From: a virus | Lineage: Duplodnaviria > Heunggongvirae > Uroviricota > Caudoviricetes | Virus record (IMG/VR): IMGVR_UViG_2778261428_000001 | DNA: 46,366 nucleotides | Strand: one strand, 5' to 3' | In this document: positions 13,008 through 23,062 of the stretch, one piece after another | How positions within the stretch are numbered: position 1 is the stretch's first letter | How the letters are laid out: each line of letters begins with the position of its first letter | Made by a program: the position numbers and the translations under genes | Notes under the pieces: model-generated | Databases searched by the model: none | What the model saw: the letters and a program-made list of their open reading frames with translations, nothing else | What the model was told of the DNA's origin: nothing

Positions 13008-13337
13008 CTATGCCACGACCTGTTCAAAATCTGCCGTTATGGTTACCCACAACGCCCCCACGCTTGCCGACCATTTACGACAAACCACCCTGATCGGCTT
13101 CCAGTCATAAGGTGGCGTCCACTGAAATGCGCGGACGCCACCGTGCCGTTCCAGAAAGGCTTTTAAAGATGGGTGTTCACATTTACGAACACGTATCGTC
13201 ACGCTGTAAGTCGACAACTGGTTATTCAGTCCCGCCGCACGACGCTGTTCATAACCATCGCCCAGCTTCACTGTCACCACTTTCGGCTCTGATACCACAT
13301 TCATATCCGGGCGCACTTTCCAGTGAAACGTCTCCAT
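13008..13337 (-). CDS. Minor tail protein M
   Basis: 109 aa, directly downstream of the tape measure gene; gpM-like. Confidence 0.75.
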   Translation of the reverse strand: METFHWKVRPDMNVVSEPKVVTVKLGDGYEQRRAAGLNNQLSTYSVTIRVRKCEHPSLKAFLERHGGVRAFQWTPPYDWKPIRVVCRKWSASVGALWVTITADFEQVVA

Positions 13338-16300
13338 TACCGATATGCTCCACTTAACCGACCACCATCACGGGCCTGCTGTTGCATAAAGTCCGCTGCC
13401 GCTTTTTTCCCAAGGTCATAAACCACCTTCAGGGCAGCCGGACCTATCTGCCCGTTCGTGCCATCGTTATTGATCTCGATGTTGTACTGCGGGGCAAACA
13501 TCGCCATACCTGAACCACCAATATCCGCCACAACCCCCAGCTTACCGTCAGCACCACGACGCAGTGGCAGAATGGCTTCAGGCCCAGCTTCCCCCATCAC
13601 ACCCGCGCCTTTTGCAAAAGCAAAAAACGTCGGACGGTTAACCACCGTGCCACTGTAGCGACTCAAATCAGCCGACTGATAAACACCGCCATCAGCATTA
13701 GCTACAAAATCAAAAGGCAGCGCGGAAGCAATGCCTTTTACCGCTTTCATTAAAGCTATCTGAGCCATGATTCTGGACATATCTGACAGCACAGAAGAGG
13801 TGAAGGATTTGAAATTGAGTTTGCCTGTAGTACAGAATGTCGCCAGCCAGTCACTCATGCTACTGAACGCAGACGTGAACAACTGTTCCACTGTCCCGGC
13901 TGTGTTATCCGCATTCTCAGTGACATTCTGGAGTGCACGCAGGACTCCGTTTTTCCAGTCACCCTGAGCAATTTCAAGCTGTTGCCAGTAACGGCGATTC
14001 TCATTCAGTTGTCGGTTCAGGCTCTCCGTCAGCGCCTGCTCGGCCTTTCTGTAGTCATCCGTGTTATATGTCCCTTTCTGCTCACTATCCCGCCTCAACT
14101 GCTCCAGCTGTTGCTGGTATTTCTGGCGAAGACTCAGTTGTACCTGATATCGCTGCCGCTGCTGATCACCCATACCCACCGTGGCGATATCCAGGTCATG
14201 TTGCTGACGCTGAGCGCGCTCTTCTTCAGCCAGTTGACTGGTCAGCTGAATTGTTTTTTTCTTCAGCTCGTTGAGTGCCGTCTGTTTCTGAAGCTCCTGC
14301 TGTTTTACATCCAGCAGCGTCAATGCCTGAATCAGTTCATCTTTACGGGCAAGCACACTCTTTTCATTTGCCGTCAGTTTTTTCCCGTCCAGGTCGCTGA
14401 TGCGCTGCTGCAGAGCCAGAAGCTGTTTATGCGCTTCTGTCATCCTGTCAGTGGCAATGCCTGCTGACTGTCTTGCAGCAGCAATCTGCCCTTCCACCTG
14501 TGCCTGTTGCTGACTGTACTGCAGCAATAACCGGGTGGCCTCATCATTACGGGTTTCGCGTGTTTTTTTCTTACCGGATGCCAGGGCTTTCTCGTAACGT
14601 TCATTTTCACGTTGTATCGCCGCATCCCTGACAGCCTGATCGGCGTACTGCATGGCATTAATACGCGCAATTTCACGCTGATGCCGTGCTGCTTCAGTTT
14701 CATTCATCCGGTTCAGTGCAGCATTTTCAGCATTACGGCGTTTCTGTTGCTCCTGATAATTCCGCTCTGCCTGCTCTTTTGCATCCTGCAAATCCTTCTG
14801 GCGTTTTTTCTCCTGAAGATCGTTAAGACGCTGCTGATCGTATTCAACCTGAGAAGATGATGCCGTCCAGGGGAGTCTTTTCGCCCGCGACACTTTCTCC
14901 TGTAAAGCGGCAATTTGTTCATCCAGCGAGTCTTCACGACCAATATTCATGGCCGCATCCCAGAAACGACTCCACAAATCAGACAGATACTTCAGCGTAC
15001 TACCAAGCGCATTGAGGTTATTATCAATATCCGCAGTACGCCGACCGGTTTCCTCTGCCAGTGCAGACATGGCTATCCGTGCAGCATCACTGGACCGTCC
15101 CTGATCCCCAAGGACACGTATCTGCTCAAGCTGAGTGGCAGTAAGAAAATGCAGCTCATTGTCCAGAGCCTTCGCGGCATTTACAGGATCATCCTTCAGC
15201 CGCTTAAACTGATTTATGGTATCGCTGATCGACTGGCCAACCGATCGCTCCATCTGTGCGGCAGCTCTCGCCACCATACCGATATCGTTTCCACGAAATG
15301 CACCACTCCCCACCACCTGAGCCAGCGCACCGGCTGCAGCATGTTGCGTGATACCATTCCCGGAAATAGCACGACTGAGCGTCCACAGCTGCCCGGCAGT
15401 GACTCCGGCATAATGCCCCGTCAGCGACAGCTGGCGGTTAAATTCTTCCCCCTCCTTCTGACCGTCATACCAGGCTTTACCCAGACCATAGACAGCCGCG
15501 GCAATACCGCCAATAACCCCGCCAAGCATCATGCCTTTCGGTGACATCAATGTGTCTATCCACCCGGCACGGTTAGCCAGCGTTATTCCGGATCCCCTCA
15601 GCGCACCTAAATTTCCGCGGGCCAGTTCACCTATCAGAACGCCTATCTCCTGACGGGCCGCTGCACTTTTCAGACCCAGCGAATGCGTGGCTTTTCCTGC
15701 CTGCTCCATTTTGCGGATATACACTTCTGCAGCACTGCTTACCCCCAGCTGGGCAGCCTTAGCACGAAGCAACTCAGAAGAAGAAAGATTCTGGCGGGTT
15801 GCCTGCTCTTTAAGCTGACGGATAAACGCCACTTTCTGTCGGGTAGCCTCTTCCTCAGCCTGTGTAAGAACACGGGTTTTCGCCGTAACCTCAGAAATCA
15901 GCGCCAGATAATCCTGCTGACCAATCCCGCCACTGTTTCTGGCCTGTCGGATCTGCTGCTGAATACGCTGTAATTCCTGCAGCCCCGCACTGGCCTGTTT
16001 CACACTGTCAATCTGACGATAAAACGCAGCAGCCGCTTTATCCTGAGCCTCCGCCAGAGCCATGGCCTGCGCCTGTTCCTCGCGCATTTTCTGGCTCAGC
16101 GCCTCCATGCGCTGGCGGGTTTTCTCCACCTCGCGGGCCATGCGTTCATGAGCCTGTGCGTTCTTCTCCACTGTCTGCGCATGGACGGATGCGGCTGTTG
16201 CAGCCGAAGACGCCGCCTGCGTTGTCTGCCGGGCGGCCTGAGTCTGACGCTCCATAAAACGCTGCATACGGGCAGAAGACCGTTCTGCATCGCTGGCTGC

Positions 16301-16423
16301 ACCATTCAGAAGGTTTTTGATACGGGGGATTTCATTTTTAAACTCTGCCGCATCAATCCCCAAATCAATGACCAGGTTGGCTATCTGGTCCATAACGCAC
16401 ACCTCCGGAAATACCTTCCCCAA
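13337..16423 (-). CDS. Tail tape measure protein H
   Basis: 1028 aa, long coiled-coil Gln/Ala/Arg/Glu-rich central region, position after G/T. Confidence 0.85.
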   Translation of the reverse strand: MGKVFPEVCVMDQIANLVIDLGIDAAEFKNEIPRIKNLLNGAASDAERSSARMQRFMERQTQAARQTTQAASSAATAASVHAQTVEKNAQAHERMAREVEKTRQRMEALSQKMREEQAQAMALAEAQDKAAAAFYRQIDSVKQASAGLQELQRIQQQIRQARNSGGIGQQDYLALISEVTAKTRVLTQAEEEATRQKVAFIRQLKEQATRQNLSSSELLRAKAAQLGVSSAAEVYIRKMEQAGKATHSLGLKSAAARQEIGVLIGELARGNLGALRGSGITLANRAGWIDTLMSPKGMMLGGVIGGIAAAVYGLGKAWYDGQKEGEEFNRQLSLTGHYAGVTAGQLWTLSRAISGNGITQHAAAGALAQVVGSGAFRGNDIGMVARAAAQMERSVGQSISDTINQFKRLKDDPVNAAKALDNELHFLTATQLEQIRVLGDQGRSSDAARIAMSALAEETGRRTADIDNNLNALGSTLKYLSDLWSRFWDAAMNIGREDSLDEQIAALQEKVSRAKRLPWTASSSQVEYDQQRLNDLQEKKRQKDLQDAKEQAERNYQEQQKRRNAENAALNRMNETEAARHQREIARINAMQYADQAVRDAAIQRENERYEKALASGKKKTRETRNDEATRLLLQYSQQQAQVEGQIAAARQSAGIATDRMTEAHKQLLALQQRISDLDGKKLTANEKSVLARKDELIQALTLLDVKQQELQKQTALNELKKKTIQLTSQLAEEERAQRQQHDLDIATVGMGDQQRQRYQVQLSLRQKYQQQLEQLRRDSEQKGTYNTDDYRKAEQALTESLNRQLNENRRYWQQLEIAQGDWKNGVLRALQNVTENADNTAGTVEQLFTSAFSSMSDWLATFCTTGKLNFKSFTSSVLSDMSRIMAQIALMKAVKGIASALPFDFVANADGGVYQSADLSRYSGTVVNRPTFFAFAKGAGVMGEAGPEAILPLRRGADGKLGVVADIGGSGMAMFAPQYNIEINNDGTNGQIGPAALKVVYDLGKKAAADFMQQQARDGGRLSGAYR

Positions 16424-16694
16424 GATGCATCAGTTCTTCGTCCGTTCGCTCCGGTATCCCGTTCTCTTCCGGTAAAAGGCTGAAATCAGCCACCGCAGCA
16501 TCACTGCTGCCGGATACCATTCTCACGATCAATGCCTTCAGCGAGGCAAACTGCGCATCCATCCACACATCACTGAAGCTCTGCATCCGGAAATAATCGC
16601 CCCACTCACCAAGCTCAGTGGCCGACATTTCCGACAGCATCCGCCGCCAGTCTGCCCGCCGGAACTCCCGGGCAAGCCGCATGACAAACTGCAT
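16365..16694 (-). CDS. Tail assembly chaperone T segment (expressed as G-T fusion by -1 frameshift)
   Basis: ORF in the -1 frame relative to G, overlapping the end of G; the -1 frame is open from 16727 through the G stop. Confidence 0.6.
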   Translation of the reverse strand: MQFVMRLAREFRRADWRRMLSEMSATELGEWGDYFRMQSFSDVWMDAQFASLKALIVRMVSGSSDAAVADFSLLPEENGIPERTDEELMHLGEGISGGVRYGPDSQPGH

Positions 16695-16702
16695 TTCCCG
16701 CG

Positions 16703-16727
16703 TCAGGACTTTTCCGGCGTCAGCGCC
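16703..16727 (-). other. Candidate programmed -1 ribosomal frameshift window (G to GT)
   Basis: Zero-frame codons GCG CTG ACG CCG GAA AAG TCC TGA; the -1 frame is open across this stretch and continues into T; no canonical X XXY YYZ heptamer (lambda uses G GGA AAG), nearest is CCG GAA AAG. Confidence 0.5.
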
Positions 16728-17131
16728 TCATGCTCATCATCCCCGGCATTATCAATGGCCCCCATACCGCTCAGCGACAGAACCATCTCCGCCCCCGCAC
16801 CCAGGGCATCATACGACCATGTTGTAATAACGGATGCGCAAAGCGTCTCTACATCCTTAGACTGATCCGCATTCCACAGTGAGCGGGAAACCAGCCAGGC
16901 ATTGATATCCATCCCCATCCGCAGAAAAGCAATCTGTCGTTCAGCCTCCGGCAGTTCTCCCTCACCGGCATCAAACTTTGCCGTTCGCTGCTGAACAAAC
17001 GCCAGATATTCAATTCTCTGCAGCCCGGACAGCTCACTGAGCACCACGGACTGTTTTTCATAATTAAACGTGCCCTGTTTCAGAAACATCATGTTCTCCA
17101 CCTGCAAAAAAGCCCCGGATAACCGGGGCAA
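16703..17131 (-). CDS. Tail assembly chaperone G
   Basis: 142 aa acidic protein between V and T/H; gpG position and size. Confidence 0.7.
   Translation of the reverse strand: MPRLSGAFLQVENMMFLKQGTFNYEKQSVVLSELSGLQRIEYLAFVQQRTAKFDAGEGELPEAERQIAFLRMGMDINAWLVSRSLWNADQSKDVETLCASVITTWSYDALGAGAEMVLSLSGMGAIDNAGDDEHEALTPEKS
17105..17129 (-). terminator. Rho-independent terminator after major tail gene V
   Basis: Minus-strand transcript reads GCCCCGGTTATCCGGGGC followed by TTTTTTG. Confidence 0.65.
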
Positions 17132-17149: not shown

Positions 17150-17893
17150 TTAACCTGCGGCGCTGACAGTCACCGCAGCCACAGCCACAAAATTCCCGTC
17201 AGCGGTCATGCCCACAATGCTGACACTGCCCTGCTTCACGCCTTTCACCGTGGCTACAAGCCCGTTCAGGGTCACCGTGGCAGTCTGTGGATCTGACGAA
17301 TGCACACTGATCGCTTTGTCACTGGCTCCGTCAGGTTTTACTGTAAAGGTCAGCGTGGTGGTTGCTCCCACTTTTACACTGGCAGATGCCGGTGCCACCG
17401 TCAGCCCGGTAACGCTCACTGTTTCAGTGCCTTCCTCTGCCAGATACGGACGCCCCACACCGCTGATTTTCACAGTGCGGGTCATCACGTCTTTTGAGGC
17501 AATGGTTTTACCCAGTGAACTCAGCCAGCCACGGAAAACATCAACAGTACCGTTGGGATATTTGATACGAAACGCGCAGACTTCACCGGAGTCGAACAAC
17601 TGAACCAGTTTTTTCTGCCCGCTGTCACCCGGACGCCAGGCCAGCGTCGCCGAAGTATCACCGACTGATTTCTGCCCCTGGGTTGTCGTTTTCCAGTCTG
17701 CATCTTCATCATCGAGATAAGTATCATCTTCTGCATCAGCGGTCATTTCGCCAGGTTGCAGATCCTTCACCATCGCAAGACGCAGCCAGTCAGTGTCCGA
17801 CAAAGGGTTCGCAAATGCGTCGCCGTTGCCGGTATACATCCAGAACGTCGTCCCCGCACCTTTCGTCTTTGCCAGTGGATTTGGTGTGGTCAT
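17150..17893 (-). CDS. Major tail protein V with C-terminal Ig-like (Big_2) domain
   Basis: gpV-like N-terminus, C-terminal Big_2-like beta-rich region (TVSVTGLTVAPASASVKVGATTTLTFTVKP...); start chosen at the Met preceded by AAGGAGG (ORF track extends to 17968). Confidence 0.8.
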   Translation of the reverse strand: MTTPNPLAKTKGAGTTFWMYTGNGDAFANPLSDTDWLRLAMVKDLQPGEMTADAEDDTYLDDEDADWKTTTQGQKSVGDTSATLAWRPGDSGQKKLVQLFDSGEVCAFRIKYPNGTVDVFRGWLSSLGKTIASKDVMTRTVKISGVGRPYLAEEGTETVSVTGLTVAPASASVKVGATTTLTFTVKPDGASDKAISVHSSDPQTATVTLNGLVATVKGVKQGSVSIVGMTADGNFVAVAAVTVSAAG

Positions 17894-19581: not shown

Positions 19582-21540
19582 TTACGCCGTACATTTCACC
19601 AGACCGCGGTGATCAACTGGCGCGACACCGGCGTCAATACGCACTTTCGTTGTCACGCCATCCACACTGAAGCCCTCCATCTGATCAATATATGGCGTAT
19701 CCACACCGTTGAGATAAGCCACTTCAATCGTATCGGAGCCTTTTGACGCAGCCAGGTAGAAGGTGGTCTGGCTGTTATCATCAAGACGAGGCTCTGCAAT
19801 AACGGTCGCAAAATCTTTCACCGGGTTAATAATACCGGCGTTAATGTCAGCCCCCTTGACACTTGAGGAGCGAATGACCTGGTTAGCAACAGACTCCATC
19901 GCCGTCGGTACCAGTACGAACGCAGGACGAATATTCAGATGACGCTCCCCCTCTTTCTGAACGCGCATCAACTGGCGGGCTTTATCCAGCGATGCCACGT
20001 CCATTGCAGCGCTCTCCAGTACGTTTGCATGTTTCGCTTTATCGAACAGACTTACATTATCTGTGGAGATTTTCGGGTTAGACGTCAGAATGGCATAAAC
20101 CAGATCGGCAATAGTGGATTTCGCCGCACGGCCCAGTTTCATCGGGACATCGGTCAGCATATTCAGATCATCATTGATAATGGCCTGACGGGTGATACTG
20201 AACAGCTCGCCATAGGTCGCCAGTGCAATAGTGGCCTGTTTATCTCCGGTGGTGACGTATTTATATTCCGCCCCTTCACGCACCTGACGCAGAGCACTGA
20301 AGCCCCCCATACCCACACGATGGGCAATTTTAAAATCAGACAACTGACCTTTCCGCGTCCACTGTTCATAGGTTTCAGGGGCATCTTCCCAGCCCTGCAG
20401 AATGGCTTTGTTCGCAACATCCAGCAGAATATTACCGAAGTCAGACGTACTGTGTGTGAACGCCGCACCGACCATCTGCATCGGGTTATAACTGGAAACC
20501 CCAATACCCCGTTCAGTCAGTGACATACGGGCATATTCACGCAGGGTCATCCCGTTGTAGACATTATCACGTTCGGTTTTTTCAAATCCGGCACGCGCCA
20601 TCAGCGCCTGGCGGATCCCGTCCCCCACAAAATTACCGTTACCGGCATAAATATGAGCCGGGGTATTTTTATTGGATGGCGTGGACTCGCGCCCCATCTC
20701 GTTCAACAGCTTTTCGCGGGCCTGCTCCAGCGAACATTCAGGATCGGCAAGACACTGAGCCTGCAGCGACTGATAACGCCCGCCAAACATGGCAAACAGA
20801 TCATTAATACCGTTTACACGCGCTTTTTGCTCTGCCAGGACCTGCGCACGGATGCTGTTTTCATCCACCACGGGTGCTGCTGCCTGCACTGGCGTCCGGG
20901 AGGCTGCAGGTTCATCATCCTGTACGCGTGGAGCACTGTTGCGTGGCGGAGTAATCATGTTTCGAATGGATTCCGGCATCTTTTTAAATTCCTCTGTACG
21001 TTTTGACTGAATACATGCCATTGCCTTAACGGCTGGTGTCACCTGATCAGCAAATCCCTGTGCCAGACATTCGGCACCGGACATCCAGGTCTCATCCGCC
21101 AGCATGGCAGCAATTTCATCGGTGGTTTTCCCGGTTTTCTGTGCATAAGCGGGTAACAGAACCGCCTCAACTTTATCGAGCAGGTCGGCATAGGTGCGCA
21201 TGTCCTCCGCATCACCGCCCGTAAAGCCAAATGGTTTATGAATCATCATGAAGGAGTTTTCCGGCATAATGACCGGGTTTCCCACCATCGCAATGACCGA
21301 CGCCATTGACGCCGCCACACCGTCGACATAAACGGTAATGGACGCACCATGTGTTTTCAGTGCATTAAAAATGGCGATGCCTTCAAAGACATCGCCACCC
21401 GGTGAATTAATATGGAGATTAATGTGGGTGATATCGCCCAGTGCATTCAGATCACTGATAAACTGCTTCGCCGTAACACCCCAGAAACCAATCTCGTCAT
21501 AAATATAAATATCCGCGTCACTCTGGTGACCTGCCTGCAT
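19582..21540 (-). CDS. Prohead protease (ClpP/S49-like) fused to major capsid protein (HK97-fold)
   Basis: One ORF with an N-terminal ClpP-like fold (INSPGGDVFEGIAIFNALK, MASVIAMVGNPVIMPENSFMMIHKP), a middle scaffold-like region and a C-terminal HK97-like capsid region; start taken at the Met at 21540 next to the portal stop. Confidence 0.7.
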   Translation of the reverse strand: MQAGHQSDADIYIYDEIGFWGVTAKQFISDLNALGDITHINLHINSPGGDVFEGIAIFNALKTHGASITVYVDGVAASMASVIAMVGNPVIMPENSFMMIHKPFGFTGGDAEDMRTYADLLDKVEAVLLPAYAQKTGKTTDEIAAMLADETWMSGAECLAQGFADQVTPAVKAMACIQSKRTEEFKKMPESIRNMITPPRNSAPRVQDDEPAASRTPVQAAAPVVDENSIRAQVLAEQKARVNGINDLFAMFGGRYQSLQAQCLADPECSLEQAREKLLNEMGRESTPSNKNTPAHIYAGNGNFVGDGIRQALMARAGFEKTERDNVYNGMTLREYARMSLTERGIGVSSYNPMQMVGAAFTHSTSDFGNILLDVANKAILQGWEDAPETYEQWTRKGQLSDFKIAHRVGMGGFSALRQVREGAEYKYVTTGDKQATIALATYGELFSITRQAIINDDLNMLTDVPMKLGRAAKSTIADLVYAILTSNPKISTDNVSLFDKAKHANVLESAAMDVASLDKARQLMRVQKEGERHLNIRPAFVLVPTAMESVANQVIRSSSVKGADINAGIINPVKDFATVIAEPRLDDNSQTTFYLAASKGSDTIEVAYLNGVDTPYIDQMEGFSVDGVTTKVRIDAGVAPVDHRGLVKCTA

Positions 21541-21553
21541 CCTGAACCAGGAA

Positions 21554-23062
21554 TTATTCTTCGGACTGGTCGTCGGTGTGCTGCGGCTCCTGTCGTTTCG
21601 TTGCGGCACTGCTGCCTCCTTTATCACTGGCCGGATCGGTATCAAATACCAGATCCAGCTTGCGGTTTTCATCAATTTCGGCCTTGCGCCGACGTTTGAC
21701 ATCATCTGGATTACGACCACCTGCACGTACCCAGTCTGATTCTGTCGCCGCTCCACCACGAATCTGAATTTTCCAGGCCTCAGCCTCCTTAACAGGGTCA
21801 ATCCACGGCATCACCGGTCCGGAATACACCGCGGTATACAGTGAAGATCGGTCCAGATCGCGGGGTAGCCTGATAACACCGGATACCACAGCCTGTTTCA
21901 GCCAGGCACGGTACATCGGGCGGGTGACGGCACCAATAAACCAGTCCTGCAGGATCAGGTAGCCATCAGTAGATTCAACCAGCTCCTGACGCTGGGCGCT
22001 GTAAGTGCCGTTATAGTTGCGCGCTGTACTGGAAAAACTCAGACGACTGCCCGCAGCCACGGCACGCAACTGACCATTACGAAAAGTTTCAAGGTTAGGA
22101 TTGGGGCGATCCGACTTCACCATTCCGATTTCTTCGCCGGGTTTCAGATCGTCGTAAATAATGCCTGGCTGAATGGTAAGCTCGCGTTCATTCTCCTTGC
22201 TGTCATTACCATCCGTTTCATAGCTCTGTCCGTCGCCTTTCCGGATGTACATCCCCAGAGCAGCGGCGATCCTTGCTGCAGTCAGCTCAGAATCTTCATA
22301 CTCTTTCAGAGCACTGAGGCGGATCAGCACACCGGACAACAAAGACGTCCCGCGCATCTGGTGCAGACGGCGAACAAATTTAAGATGCAGCATTCGCTCT
22401 GCATCCACTTCTTTGGTTTCCATCTGCCGCCCGGATACGGGACGGCTTTTATACACCAGATATTTTTCGGGACGCCCCCAGTCATCAACAAACACGCCCT
22501 GATTCAGCCTGTTGCTCTCATCACTGGTCATGGGAATAAAGTCCGGCTCGAGCGCCTCCAGCCAGAAATGAACACCGGCAGAAGGCGTCAGGCTGTTTAT
22601 GCGCCCGGAAACCATCTGGGCAAACACCTCACCATCGCGCAGCCAGGTACGCAGCATCAGACGTTCCAGCATCGGACGGGTAAACTGCCCGGTGACCTCC
22701 GGACTGACAGACCATTCACTCCATCGGGTACGTATCTCCGCTGCCAGATCACGGGCAATGGCCCCATTGCGTAATACCGGATGTGGCTCGACAATAATCC
22801 CGTTTTTCCCCACCACCCGTTCTTCCAGCTTGTCAAATACACCAATGACCAGATCGTGGTTGTTATCAAGGTAACGAGCCTGCTCACGTAACGACACGGC
22901 CCCGTACTGGCTTAACTGGTCGGCAGTTCGGTTCTCCCGTCGGGCTTTGTGTGTCCGCGTCGTTTTTACGGCCTCATAAGCCTGGATCACCGCACGGGAA
23001 CGCAGCCTTGCCGCTTTCCATCCTGGTGAAAAAACGCCAATCACATCATCAAGAATTGCCAT
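21554..23062 (-). CDS. Portal protein
   Basis: About 500 aa between W-like and protease-capsid genes; lambda-type portal position; start taken at the Met abutting the upstream gene (ORF track extends to 23134). Confidence 0.8.
   Translation of the reverse strand: MAILDDVIGVFSPGWKAARLRSRAVIQAYEAVKTTRTHKARRENRTADQLSQYGAVSLREQARYLDNNHDLVIGVFDKLEERVVGKNGIIVEPHPVLRNGAIARDLAAEIRTRWSEWSVSPEVTGQFTRPMLERLMLRTWLRDGEVFAQMVSGRINSLTPSAGVHFWLEALEPDFIPMTSDESNRLNQGVFVDDWGRPEKYLVYKSRPVSGRQMETKEVDAERMLHLKFVRRLHQMRGTSLLSGVLIRLSALKEYEDSELTAARIAAALGMYIRKGDGQSYETDGNDSKENERELTIQPGIIYDDLKPGEEIGMVKSDRPNPNLETFRNGQLRAVAAGSRLSFSSTARNYNGTYSAQRQELVESTDGYLILQDWFIGAVTRPMYRAWLKQAVVSGVIRLPRDLDRSSLYTAVYSGPVMPWIDPVKEAEAWKIQIRGGAATESDWVRAGGRNPDDVKRRRKAEIDENRKLDLVFDTDPASDKGGSSAATKRQEPQHTDDQSEE

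What the first reader, a model, noticed from the sequence alone, without database searches (positions are those of the whole stretch)
16365..17131. G/GT tail chaperone frameshift with a non-canonical slippery site
T begins in the -1 frame of G and that frame is open across the last 8 codons of G, consistent with the conserved G-GT programmed frameshift of long-tailed phages. However the shift window (GCG CTG ACG CCG GAA AAG TCC TGA) has no canonical X XXY YYZ heptamer. The A-site AAG to AAA slip is possible, but the P-site codon GAA would mispair.
Basis: seen in the sequence. Interest (0 to 1): 0.4.

Follow-up and report, generated by a model that had tools for sequence, protein, structure and literature searches.

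The report
Lambda-type G/GT tail-chaperone frameshift site
This is the ordinary programmed -1 frameshift that makes the GT tail-assembly chaperone of lambda-like phages; its slip site, G GAA AAG, differs by one base from lambda's G GGA AAG, is the commonest version in this gene family, and is already annotated in phages N15, phi80 and LLS.

Summary
On the minus strand, G (17089..16703) is followed by a T-domain frame at -1. That frame is open from 16727 and runs to the stop at 16367..16365. The only slip-prone motif in the 22-nt overlap is G GAA AAG (16715..16709).

The window is an mEp460/cdtI/HannyBb-type lambdoid phage. The heptamer sits exactly where lambda has G GGA AAG, and the products align (GKVL... 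here, GKVF... in lambda). It is not a sequencing error: the module is in 1847 of 5426 complete E. coli genomes.

Among 19 G/GT lineages below 80% identity, 13 carry GGAAAAG, 4 GGGAAAG, 1 AAAAAAG and 1 CGCAAAG. The codon before the heptamer varies (Pro, Ala, Thr, Val, Leu), but its third base is always G. This argues for selection on the whole heptamer.

GenBank records of N15, phi80 and LLS already annotate GGAAAAG as the -1 slippery sequence.

The most likely mechanism is tandem slippage. tRNA-Lys moves from AAG to AAA, and tRNA-Glu moves from GAA to GGA with a second-position G-U wobble.

I found no conserved downstream RNA structure. An SD-like GAGG lies 10 nt upstream, but such elements are not general in the family.

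Verdict: real, ordinary, already known. No frameshift efficiency or GT product has been measured for this site.

The parts
16703..17089 (-). Gene G, tail assembly chaperone (128 aa, MFLKQ...TPEKS, stop TGA 16705..16703). An alternative ATG lies at 17092.
   Evidence: PF06894 E 1.8e-39; TIGR01674 equivalog 185 bits. PGAP annotates the same 387-nt gene as gpG.
16709..16715 (-). Shift site G GAA AAG (0 frame) read as GGA AAA G (-1 frame). It is homologous to lambda's G GGA AAG.
   Evidence: Sequence. Same position as the lambda heptamer, with aligned -1 products. Conserved in 13 of 19 lineages, with GGGAAAG in 4 others. The same heptamer is annotated as slippery in N15, phi80 and LLS.
16728..16730 (-). 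Last stop codon (TGA) of the -1 frame. It sets the 5' limit of the window in which a productive shift can occur.
   Evidence: Frame scan.
16365..16709 (-). T segment read in the -1 frame after the shift (VLTREMQFVM...QPGH, 114 codons plus stop TGA 16367..16365). The predicted GT is 241 aa, with junction ...ALTPEK|VLTRE....
   Evidence: PF06223 E 5e-15; TIGR01715 134 bits over GT residues 132-238. The annotated T start, ATG 16694, is CTG in most lineages (alignment A3, columns 22-24).
16726..16729 (-). SD-like GAGG, 10 nt 5' of the heptamer. A possible dnaX-type upstream stimulator; its function is not shown.
   Evidence: Sequence. SD-like 4-mers lie at 8-13 nt in 8 of 14 GGAAAAG lineage representatives and 0 of 6 others. 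This is confounded by a conserved Glu/Asp codon at that position.
17106..17129 (-). Intrinsic terminator between V and G (GCCCCGG TTAT CCGGGGC followed by T6). Context: it probably lowers G/T/H transcription relative to V.
   Evidence: Terminator scan. Annotated as a rho-independent terminator at the same place in mEp460 and Ayreon.
17150..17893 (-). Major tail protein V (context, upstream gene).
   Evidence: PF16461 E 1e-66 plus Big_2.
13337..16393 (-). Tape measure protein H (context, downstream gene). Its start overlaps the end of T by 29 nt.
   Evidence: PF06791, PF09718 and PF24622; ORF list.

Best explanation
A small fraction of ribosomes translating G slip back one base on G GAA AAG (16715..16709) and continue in the T frame. 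They make a 241-aa GT fusion with junction ...TPEK|VLTRE.... All other ribosomes stop two codons later and make G (128 aa).

By homology with lambda, G and the G part of GT coat the tape measure H. The T part recruits the major tail protein V. Neither protein stays in the virion.

The inferred slip is tandem.
- A site: E. coli's single tRNA-Lys (anticodon mnm5s2UUU) moves from AAG to its better-matched AAA.
- P site: E. coli's single tRNA-Glu (anticodon mnm5s2UUC) moves from GAA to GGA. This keeps Watson-Crick pairs at codon positions 1 and 3 and a G-U wobble at position 2.
- No RNA structure is required.

Shown: gene identities, frame geometry, homology of the site with lambda's, nucleotide-level conservation, and the lack of a conserved start codon for T.
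Inferred: that the shift happens at all, its tandem nature, and its efficiency.
For: 1. Family and synteny: the order V-G-T-H, with Pfam and NCBIfam equivalog hits.
2. The heptamer is at the same position as lambda's G GGA AAG. The downstream -1 products align: GKVLTREMQFVMRLAREFRRADW here, GKVFDGELSFALKLAREMGRPDW in lambda.
3. In 227 loci (85 distinct GT proteins, 19 clusters below 80% identity), every locus has an in-frame NNNAAAG at this spot: 13 clusters GGAAAAG, 4 GGGAAAG, 1 AAAAAAG, 1 CGCAAAG. The G tail around it is otherwise barely alignable.
4. The codon before the heptamer is CCG, GCG, ACG, GTG or CTG. The amino acid changes but the third base stays G. Given this phage's codon usage, the joint probability is about 1e-7 if lineages were independent. 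AAG is kept in all lineages although AAA is three times commoner here (109 against 37). This indicates selection on heptamer bases 1 and 7, which do not code in the T frame.
5. T has no conserved start. ATG 16694 is CTG in most lineages.
6. Plaque-forming phages carry this heptamer: N15, phi80, mEp460, LLS, HannyBb, Tritos.
7. Three GenBank records annotate GGAAAAG as the -1 slippery sequence, two of them with a joined GT CDS.
8. The same GAA-to-GGA G-U re-pairing is invoked for actinophage GGGGGAA sites (PMC10885494).
Against: - There is no direct measurement for this heptamer in any phage in the sources I could read.
- In a reconstituted E. coli system, AUG GAA AAG was chosen as the 'unfavourable' control and gave mainly 0-frame product at all EF-G concentrations (PMC6924986).
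- The A_AAG tetramer alone is at background (about 0.15%) without a stimulator, and reaches 5.6% only with the IS3 pseudoknot (PMC4066793).
- I found no conserved downstream structure.
- One lineage (L159) has C GCA AAG, where no P-site re-pairing is possible. P-site pairing may therefore be dispensable.
Confidence: 0.8

Rival explanations
1. Single-tRNA slippage. Only tRNA-Lys on A AAG matters, either in the A site or as a P-site slip while the next codon UCC waits. GAA-to-GGA re-pairing of tRNA-Glu contributes nothing.
For: - AAAG is the only part of the heptamer that never varies: 20 of 20 lineage representatives.
- Lineage L159 has C GCA AAG, with no possible P-site re-pairing.
- A_AAG is the best tetramer in E. 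coli (PMC4066793).
Against: - Heptamer bases 1-2 are GG in 17 of 19 clusters, although the codon that supplies base 1 changes its amino acid.
- The only alternative at base 3 is G, and the AAAAAAG lineage has A at base 1. Every common variant therefore allows P-site re-pairing.
- The tetramer alone is at background without a strong stimulator, and no stimulator is conserved.
Confidence: 0.13
2. No frameshift. T is made as a free 109-aa protein from ATG 16694, 8 nt after the G stop, by re-initiation or coupling. This is how PGAP and most phage records annotate it.
For: - An ATG exists at 16694 in this lineage.
- T is annotated as a stand-alone gene, and that exact 109-aa sequence was seen on at least 1000 contigs, the look-up's counting cap.
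Against: - That ATG is CTG in most lineages, and no other start is conserved.
- GGGAA abuts the ATG, so the spacing is poor for an SD.
- The T frame is open back through the heptamer in all 227 loci.
- T homology starts upstream of the ATG: TIGR01715 begins at GT residue 132, and GKV aligns with lambda.
- In lambda, T functions only as part of GT (Levin 1993; Xu 2013/2014, as summarised in PMC5009743).
Confidence: 0.04
3. Transcriptional slippage on the A run, a sequencing error, or a decaying prophage site that no longer makes GT.
For: None specific. The A4 run is formally a homopolymer.
Against: - A4 is far below the A7-A9 or longer runs known to support transcriptional realignment (PMC3711429).
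- The identical heptamer is in 204 loci, and the module is in 1847 complete genomes.
- It is present in isolated, plaque-forming phages.
Confidence: 0.02

Closest known systems
Phage lambda G/GT programmed -1 frameshift (G GGA AAG; Levin, Hendrix and Casjens 1993)
   Same: - Homologous G and T (PF06894/TIGR01674 and PF06223/TIGR01715).
- Same V-G-T-H gene order.
- Shift site at the homologous position, with the same A-site AAG-to-AAA slip.
- -1 products that align from GKV onward.
- No conserved RNA stimulator.
   Different: - Base 3 of the heptamer is A, not G. The P-site tRNA is therefore tRNA-Glu re-pairing with a second-position G-U, instead of tRNA-Gly with a third-position wobble.
- G stops one codon after the heptamer here, against five codons in lambda.
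- T is shorter (114 codons against about 146).
N15 gp14/gp15, phi80 G-T and LLS genes 11/12
   Same: The same family and the same heptamer, GGAAAAG, at the same position. The GenBank records annotate it as 'slippery sequence for -1 translational frameshift' or 'minus-one programmed translational frameshift site GGAAAAG'; phi80 and LLS also carry joined GT CDSs.
   Different: - G is only about 30-34% identical to the window's G.
- Their G continues five codons past the heptamer.
- They have no SD-like element 8-13 nt upstream.
Gifsy-1, Gifsy-2 and Fels-1 (Salmonella) G/T
   Same: These are the nearest diverged relatives: 54-56% protein identity and 68-70% nucleotide identity. They share an identical CCG GAA AAG YCC TGA end of G and an SD-like AGGA or GAGGA 9-12 nt upstream. 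The RefSeq notes call T part of a frameshift product.
   Different: The G tail and the T sequence are diverged, and T has no ATG at the position of 16694.
E. coli dnaX (A AAA AAG with an SD-like element 10 nt upstream and a downstream hairpin)
   Same: - The same A-site tRNA-Lys AAG-to-AAA slip.
- This window also has an SD-like GAGG exactly 10 nt upstream (dnaX architecture as described in PMC6924986).
   Different: - No conserved downstream hairpin.
- The P-site codon is only near-cognate after the shift.
- The SD-like element is untested and is absent from many lineages with the same heptamer.
Actinobacteriophage tail-chaperone sites such as GGGGGAA, and the 'twofour' motif class of PRFect
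   Same: These are non-X XXY YYZ shift sites in tail-chaperone genes. GAA is proposed to re-pair with GGA through G-U pairing. GGAAAA fits the paper's two-plus-four repeat definition (PMC10885494; my reading of the definition).
   Different: In those sites GAA is the A-site codon. The hosts and tRNA sets are different, and the sites are not homologous.

Membership tests
Lambda-type G/GT tail assembly chaperone pair expressed by -1 frameshifting | The upstream ORF is a gpG homologue. | tested here: met
   PF06894 E 1.8e-39; TIGR01674 equivalog 185 bits against a cut-off of 74.
Lambda-type G/GT tail assembly chaperone pair expressed by -1 frameshifting | The downstream segment is a gpT homologue in the -1 frame, overlaps the end of G, and has no conserved start of its own. 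| tested here: met
   PF06223 E 5e-15; TIGR01715 134 bits against a cut-off of 77. The -1 frame is open from 16727. ATG 16694 is replaced by CTG in most lineages.
Lambda-type G/GT tail assembly chaperone pair expressed by -1 frameshifting | The pair is located between the major tail protein gene and the tape measure gene. | tested here: met
   V lies at 17893..17150 and H at 16393..13337, both with the lambda-type Pfam domains.
Lambda-type G/GT tail assembly chaperone pair expressed by -1 frameshifting | A slip-prone site lies in the overlap at the position homologous to lambda's G GGA AAG. | tested here: met
   G GAA AAG at 16715..16709 lines up with lambda's heptamer. It alternates with GGGAAAG across 19 lineages.
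Lambda-type G/GT tail assembly chaperone pair expressed by -1 frameshifting | A GT fusion protein is made at a low ratio to G and is needed for tail assembly. | not testable with these tools
   This needs protein or genetic data. The predicted 241-aa GT is absent from the 15-billion-protein collection, so it has not been annotated for this lineage.
Canonical X XXY YYZ tandem-slippage heptamer | The first three bases are identical (XXX), so the P-site tRNA keeps its first two pairs after the shift. | tested here: not met
   The bases are GGA. tRNA-Glu on GGA has a second-position G-U (sequence; the same point is made in PMC6924986).
Canonical X XXY YYZ tandem-slippage heptamer | Bases 4-6 are identical (YYY), so the A-site tRNA re-pairs cognately. 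| tested here: met
   A AAG becomes AAA. AAAG is invariant in 20 of 20 lineage representatives.
dnaX-type stimulated -1 frameshift | An SD-like element lies about 10-14 nt 5' of the heptamer. | tested here: inconclusive
   GAGG lies 10 nt upstream. SD-like 4-mers are present in 8 of 14 GGAAAAG representatives and 0 of 6 others, against about 7% background. The result is confounded by a conserved Glu/Asp codon at -14..-12 and by shared ancestry.
dnaX-type stimulated -1 frameshift | A stable hairpin or pseudoknot starts 5-9 nt 3' of the heptamer. | tested here: not met
   RNAalifold on 17 lineages gave -1.6 kcal/mol and no covarying pairs. The window's own fold has z = -1.8. There is no Rfam match.

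The most novel reading that the evidence does not exclude
G GAA AAG, which the translation field uses as a 'non-slippery' control, may be the ancestral and predominant GT shift site of enterobacterial lambdoid phages. It may reach lambda-like efficiency in vivo only because of unrecognised helpers. Candidates are the SD-like element 9-12 nt upstream, which is seen in all but one lineage of the window's clade, and the conserved nascent motif E-x-[LV]-[TS]-[PA]-E-K. If so, P-site re-pairing with a second-position G-U would be a general and overlooked class of bacterial -1 sites.
Probability: 0.15. Interest if true: 0.5.

Novelty: already known. Interest (0 to 1): 0.2.

Why it matters
Scientifically it matters little. 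It is another instance of the conserved G/GT recoding event, at a heptamer that phage annotators have marked since the N15 record.

Two practical points remain.

1. Annotation. This module is in about a third of complete E. coli genomes. T is annotated there as a free-standing 109-aa gene, and the GT fusion is absent from a 15-billion-protein collection. This is a systematic annotation gap. Motif rules restricted to X XXY YYZ will perpetuate it.

2. Mechanism. The exact sequence used in vitro as an 'unfavourable' control (PMC6924986) is the form that natural selection keeps in most lineages of this family. It is therefore a cheap natural test case for how much second-position G-U re-pairing in the P site supports -1 frameshifting in vivo.

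Tried and rejected
1. Upstream SD-like compensation for a weaker heptamer. This looked promising at first. GAGG, AGGA or GGAG lie 9-12 nt upstream in the mEp460, Gifsy-1, Gifsy-2, Fels-1, Citrobacter, L095 and L103 lineages and in none of the GGGAAAG lineages. But N15, phi80, L105, L132 and L099 carry GGAAAAG without such an element. The enrichment also coincides with a conserved Glu/Asp codon. I kept it only as an untested possibility.

2. Downstream stimulatory RNA.
- Single-sequence folds are unremarkable (z = -1.8 for the window; values for 19 lineages).
- RNAalifold finds nothing.
- A GC-rich hairpin seen in many lineages starts about 33 nt downstream and lies in the LAREF..PDWR coding motif. 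That is too far away to act at the slip.
- There was no Rfam hit.

3. Phage-encoded tRNAs that could change decoding. None were found.

4. Literature. Searches for GGAAAAG or 'G GAA AAG' as a phage slip site returned only Peng et al. 2019. Xu, Hendrix and Duda 2004 is not held, so I could not check whether it lists or tests this heptamer.

5. A viral-contig scan with the Serratia-type G found no relatives.

6. Sequencing error, transcriptional slippage and independent initiation of T were rejected, as set out under the rival explanations.

Full report
OBSERVATION

The genes lie on the minus strand.
- The G frame ends GAG GCG CTG ACG CCG GAA AAG TCC TGA, with the stop at 16705..16703.
- The -1 frame has its last stop at 16730..16728. 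It then runs open to 16367..16365 and reads GADAGKVLTREMQFVMRLAREF....
- The usable shift window is therefore 22 nt. It holds no X XXY YYZ motif.
- The only place where an A-site tRNA can re-pair cognately is G GAA AAG (16715..16709).
G really starts at ATG 17089 (or 17092).
- The string GGAAAAG occurs 11 times in the window, against 8.2 expected. In about 3,500 structural-gene codons it is in frame as G_GAA_AAG only here.

IDENTITY

- G matches PF06894 (E 2e-39) and TIGR01674. The -1 segment matches PF06223 (E 5e-15) and TIGR01715.
- Upstream is a lambda-type major tail protein with a Big_2 domain. Downstream is a lambda-type tape measure.
- The 901-nt region is 100% identical to Escherichia phage HannyBb and 97.6-99.9% identical to mEp460, cdtI, Tritos, Ayreon and others.
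- It occurs in 1847 of 5426 complete E. coli genomes. PGAP annotates G and T there as separate genes.

HOMOLOGY OF THE SITE

Lambda has GCG GGA AAG TGT at the corresponding place. The post-shift products align: lambda GKVFDGELSFALKLAREMGRPDW, and here GKVLTREMQFVMRLAREFRRADW. The window's heptamer is therefore lambda's with A instead of G at base 3.

SURVEY

I collected 227 loci from IMG/VR, one-genome-per-species GTDB contigs and GenBank phages. For each one I located the G stop, the -1 window and the in-frame NNNAAAG.
- By locus: 204 GGAAAAG, 21 GGGAAAG, 1 AAAAAAG and 1 CGCAAAG. The sample is biased towards relatives of the window.
- By lineage (19 clusters below 80% GT identity):
  - 13 have GGAAAAG. 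These are the mEp460 group, two relatives of it (L209, L231), Gifsy-1, Gifsy-2, Fels-1 with a Citrobacter prophage, N15 with mEp237, the phi80/mEp213/LLS/Flotzy cluster, Klebsiella Kp4865-4, and prophages of Pluralibacter, Superficieibacter, Phytobacter and Atlantibacter.
  - 4 have GGGAAAG: lambda, the Stx2a/E. albertii group, Serratia/Symbiopectobacterium, and L157.
  - VT1-Sakai has A AAA AAG.
  - One IMG/VR contig (L159) has C GCA AAG.
- A neighbour-joining tree with Fitch parsimony puts GGAAAAG at the root, with four changes away from it. This is a rough inference.

NUCLEOTIDE-LEVEL SELECTION

- The G tail around the site is highly variable, yet AAAG is invariant.
- Bases 1-2 are GG in 17 of 19 clusters.
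- The codon supplying base 1 is CCG, GCG, ACG, GTG or CTG. Three of these occur within a single cluster. The amino acid changes while the wobble G is kept.
- With this phage's codon usage, the joint probability is about 1e-7 if lineages were independent. That figure overstates the significance, because the lineages are related.
- AAG is kept although AAA is the preferred Lys codon (109 against 37).
- In a tandem slip, bases 1-6 are never decoded in the T frame. Their conservation is therefore a signal at the RNA level.

T HAS NO CONSERVED START

ATG 16694 is CTG in most lineages (alignment A3). GGGAA abuts it, and T-family homology begins upstream of it.

PRIOR KNOWLEDGE

- AF064539 (N15) marks GGAAAAG as 'slippery sequence for -1 translational frameshift'.
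- FN582354 (phi80) does the same and gives a joined gpG-T CDS.
- PQ299149 (LLS) labels it 'minus-one programmed translational frameshift site GGAAAAG'.
- The RefSeq notes for Gifsy-1 and Gifsy-2 call T part of a frameshift product.
- PRFect lists non-canonical tail-chaperone motifs and proposes G-U re-pairing of GAA on GGA (PMC10885494).
- Against this, Peng et al. 2019 used AUG GAA AAG as the unfavourable control and saw mainly 0-frame product in vitro (PMC6924986).
- Sharma et al. 2014 found A_AAG alone at background and at 5.6% with a pseudoknot (PMC4066793).
- For this lineage the predicted GT fusion is in no database entry of the 15-billion-protein collection.

MECHANISM

The best-supported reading is tandem -1 slippage.
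- tRNA-Lys moves from AAG to AAA. This is established as the driver of bacterial -1 sites.
- tRNA-Glu moves from GAA to GGA, with C36-G1, U35-G2 (wobble) and U34-A3.
- Lambda needs only about one GT per 30 G (PMC5009743), so a weak site may be enough.

I looked for helpers.
- There is no conserved downstream structure and no Rfam match.
- An SD-like GAGG sits 10 nt upstream, the dnaX spacing. Similar elements occur in 8 of 14 GGAAAAG representatives and in none of 6 others.
- N15, phi80 and others lack them, and the position coincides with a conserved acidic codon of the motif E-x-[LV]-[TS]-[PA]-[EG]-K. This remains unproven.

RIVALS

- Single-tRNA slippage is supported by L159 and by the in vitro view. 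It is opposed by the conservation of bases 1-2.
- Free T from ATG 16694 is opposed by the non-conservation of that start and by the G-tethering logic known from lambda.
- Transcriptional slippage or a sequencing error is excluded by the short A4 run and by hundreds of identical copies.

VERDICT

The observation and the interpretation are both right. The feature is the ordinary lambda-family G/GT frameshift at a near-cognate heptamer that is the majority form in the family and is already annotated in related phages. Interest is low. What remains open is the efficiency of this site in vivo, and whether an SD-like element or the nascent peptide assists it.

Noticed in passing
window 17129..17106 (-): A strong intrinsic terminator lies between the major tail gene V and G: a 7-bp all-GC stem, a TTAT loop and T6. 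The equivalent spot is annotated as a terminator in mEp460, Ayreon and N15. It would lower G/T/H transcript levels relative to V.
   Followed up: partly
window 16694..16365 (-); T is annotated as an independent 109-aa gene; that exact sequence was seen on at least 1000 contigs (the look-up's counting cap), in a 90%-identity cluster of 1148 members. The predicted 241-aa GT fusion of this lineage is absent from the 15-billion-protein collection. This is a systematic annotation gap for a module found in about a third of complete E. coli genomes.
   Followed up: yes
L159 (IMGVR_UViG_3300036792_000541), about 30 nt before the G stop: This G/T homologue has C GCA AAG at the shift position. Only the A AAG tetramer is left and no P-site re-pairing is possible. 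AAGGA lies 6 nt upstream. It is the only lineage of this kind that I found.
   Followed up: no
L128 (VT1-Sakai, AP000400.1): The homologous site in this phage is the dnaX-type heptamer A AAA AAG (TCA AAA AAG CAT). Three canonical or near-canonical heptamers therefore interchange at one position within the family.
   Followed up: partly
heptamer base 3 and position +9 (third base of the next 0-frame codon), 20 lineage representatives: These two positions covary. Thirteen of 14 GGAAAAG representatives have C at +9 (TCC or CCC). All four GGGAAAG lineages, from two separate clades, have T at +9 (TCT or TGT). This could be a 3'-context effect or just T-frame coding (Leu against Phe/Leu).
   Followed up: no
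window 16729..16706 (-) and homologues: The G tail is otherwise hypervariable but ends in a conserved peptide motif, E-x-[LV]-[TS]-[PA]-[EG]-K-[SP]. The second base of the Thr/Ser codon is C in 20 of 20 representatives. I did not determine whether this reflects protein function or a nascent-chain effect on the shift.
   Followed up: no
L106-L118 (genome-contig scan): G genes identical to lambda's turn up on short, low-coverage contigs in assemblies of unrelated organisms, including Kitasatospora, Shewanella, Pseudomonas, Oceanobacillus and Leeuwenhoekiella. This is almost certainly lambda DNA contamination of the sequencing libraries.
   Followed up: no
window 16491..16474 (-): The mEp460 record annotates a second 'rho-independent terminator' inside T (GGCTGA-TT-TCAGCC followed by TTTT), just upstream of the tape measure start. 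The consensus scan here did not call it, because the loop is only 2 nt.
   Followed up: no
window 19582..21801 (-): A 739-aa ORF upstream of the tail genes looks, on reading the sequence, like a prohead protease (ClpP/S49-like GGDVFEG motif) fused to a major capsid protein. I did not check it against any family library.
   Followed up: no
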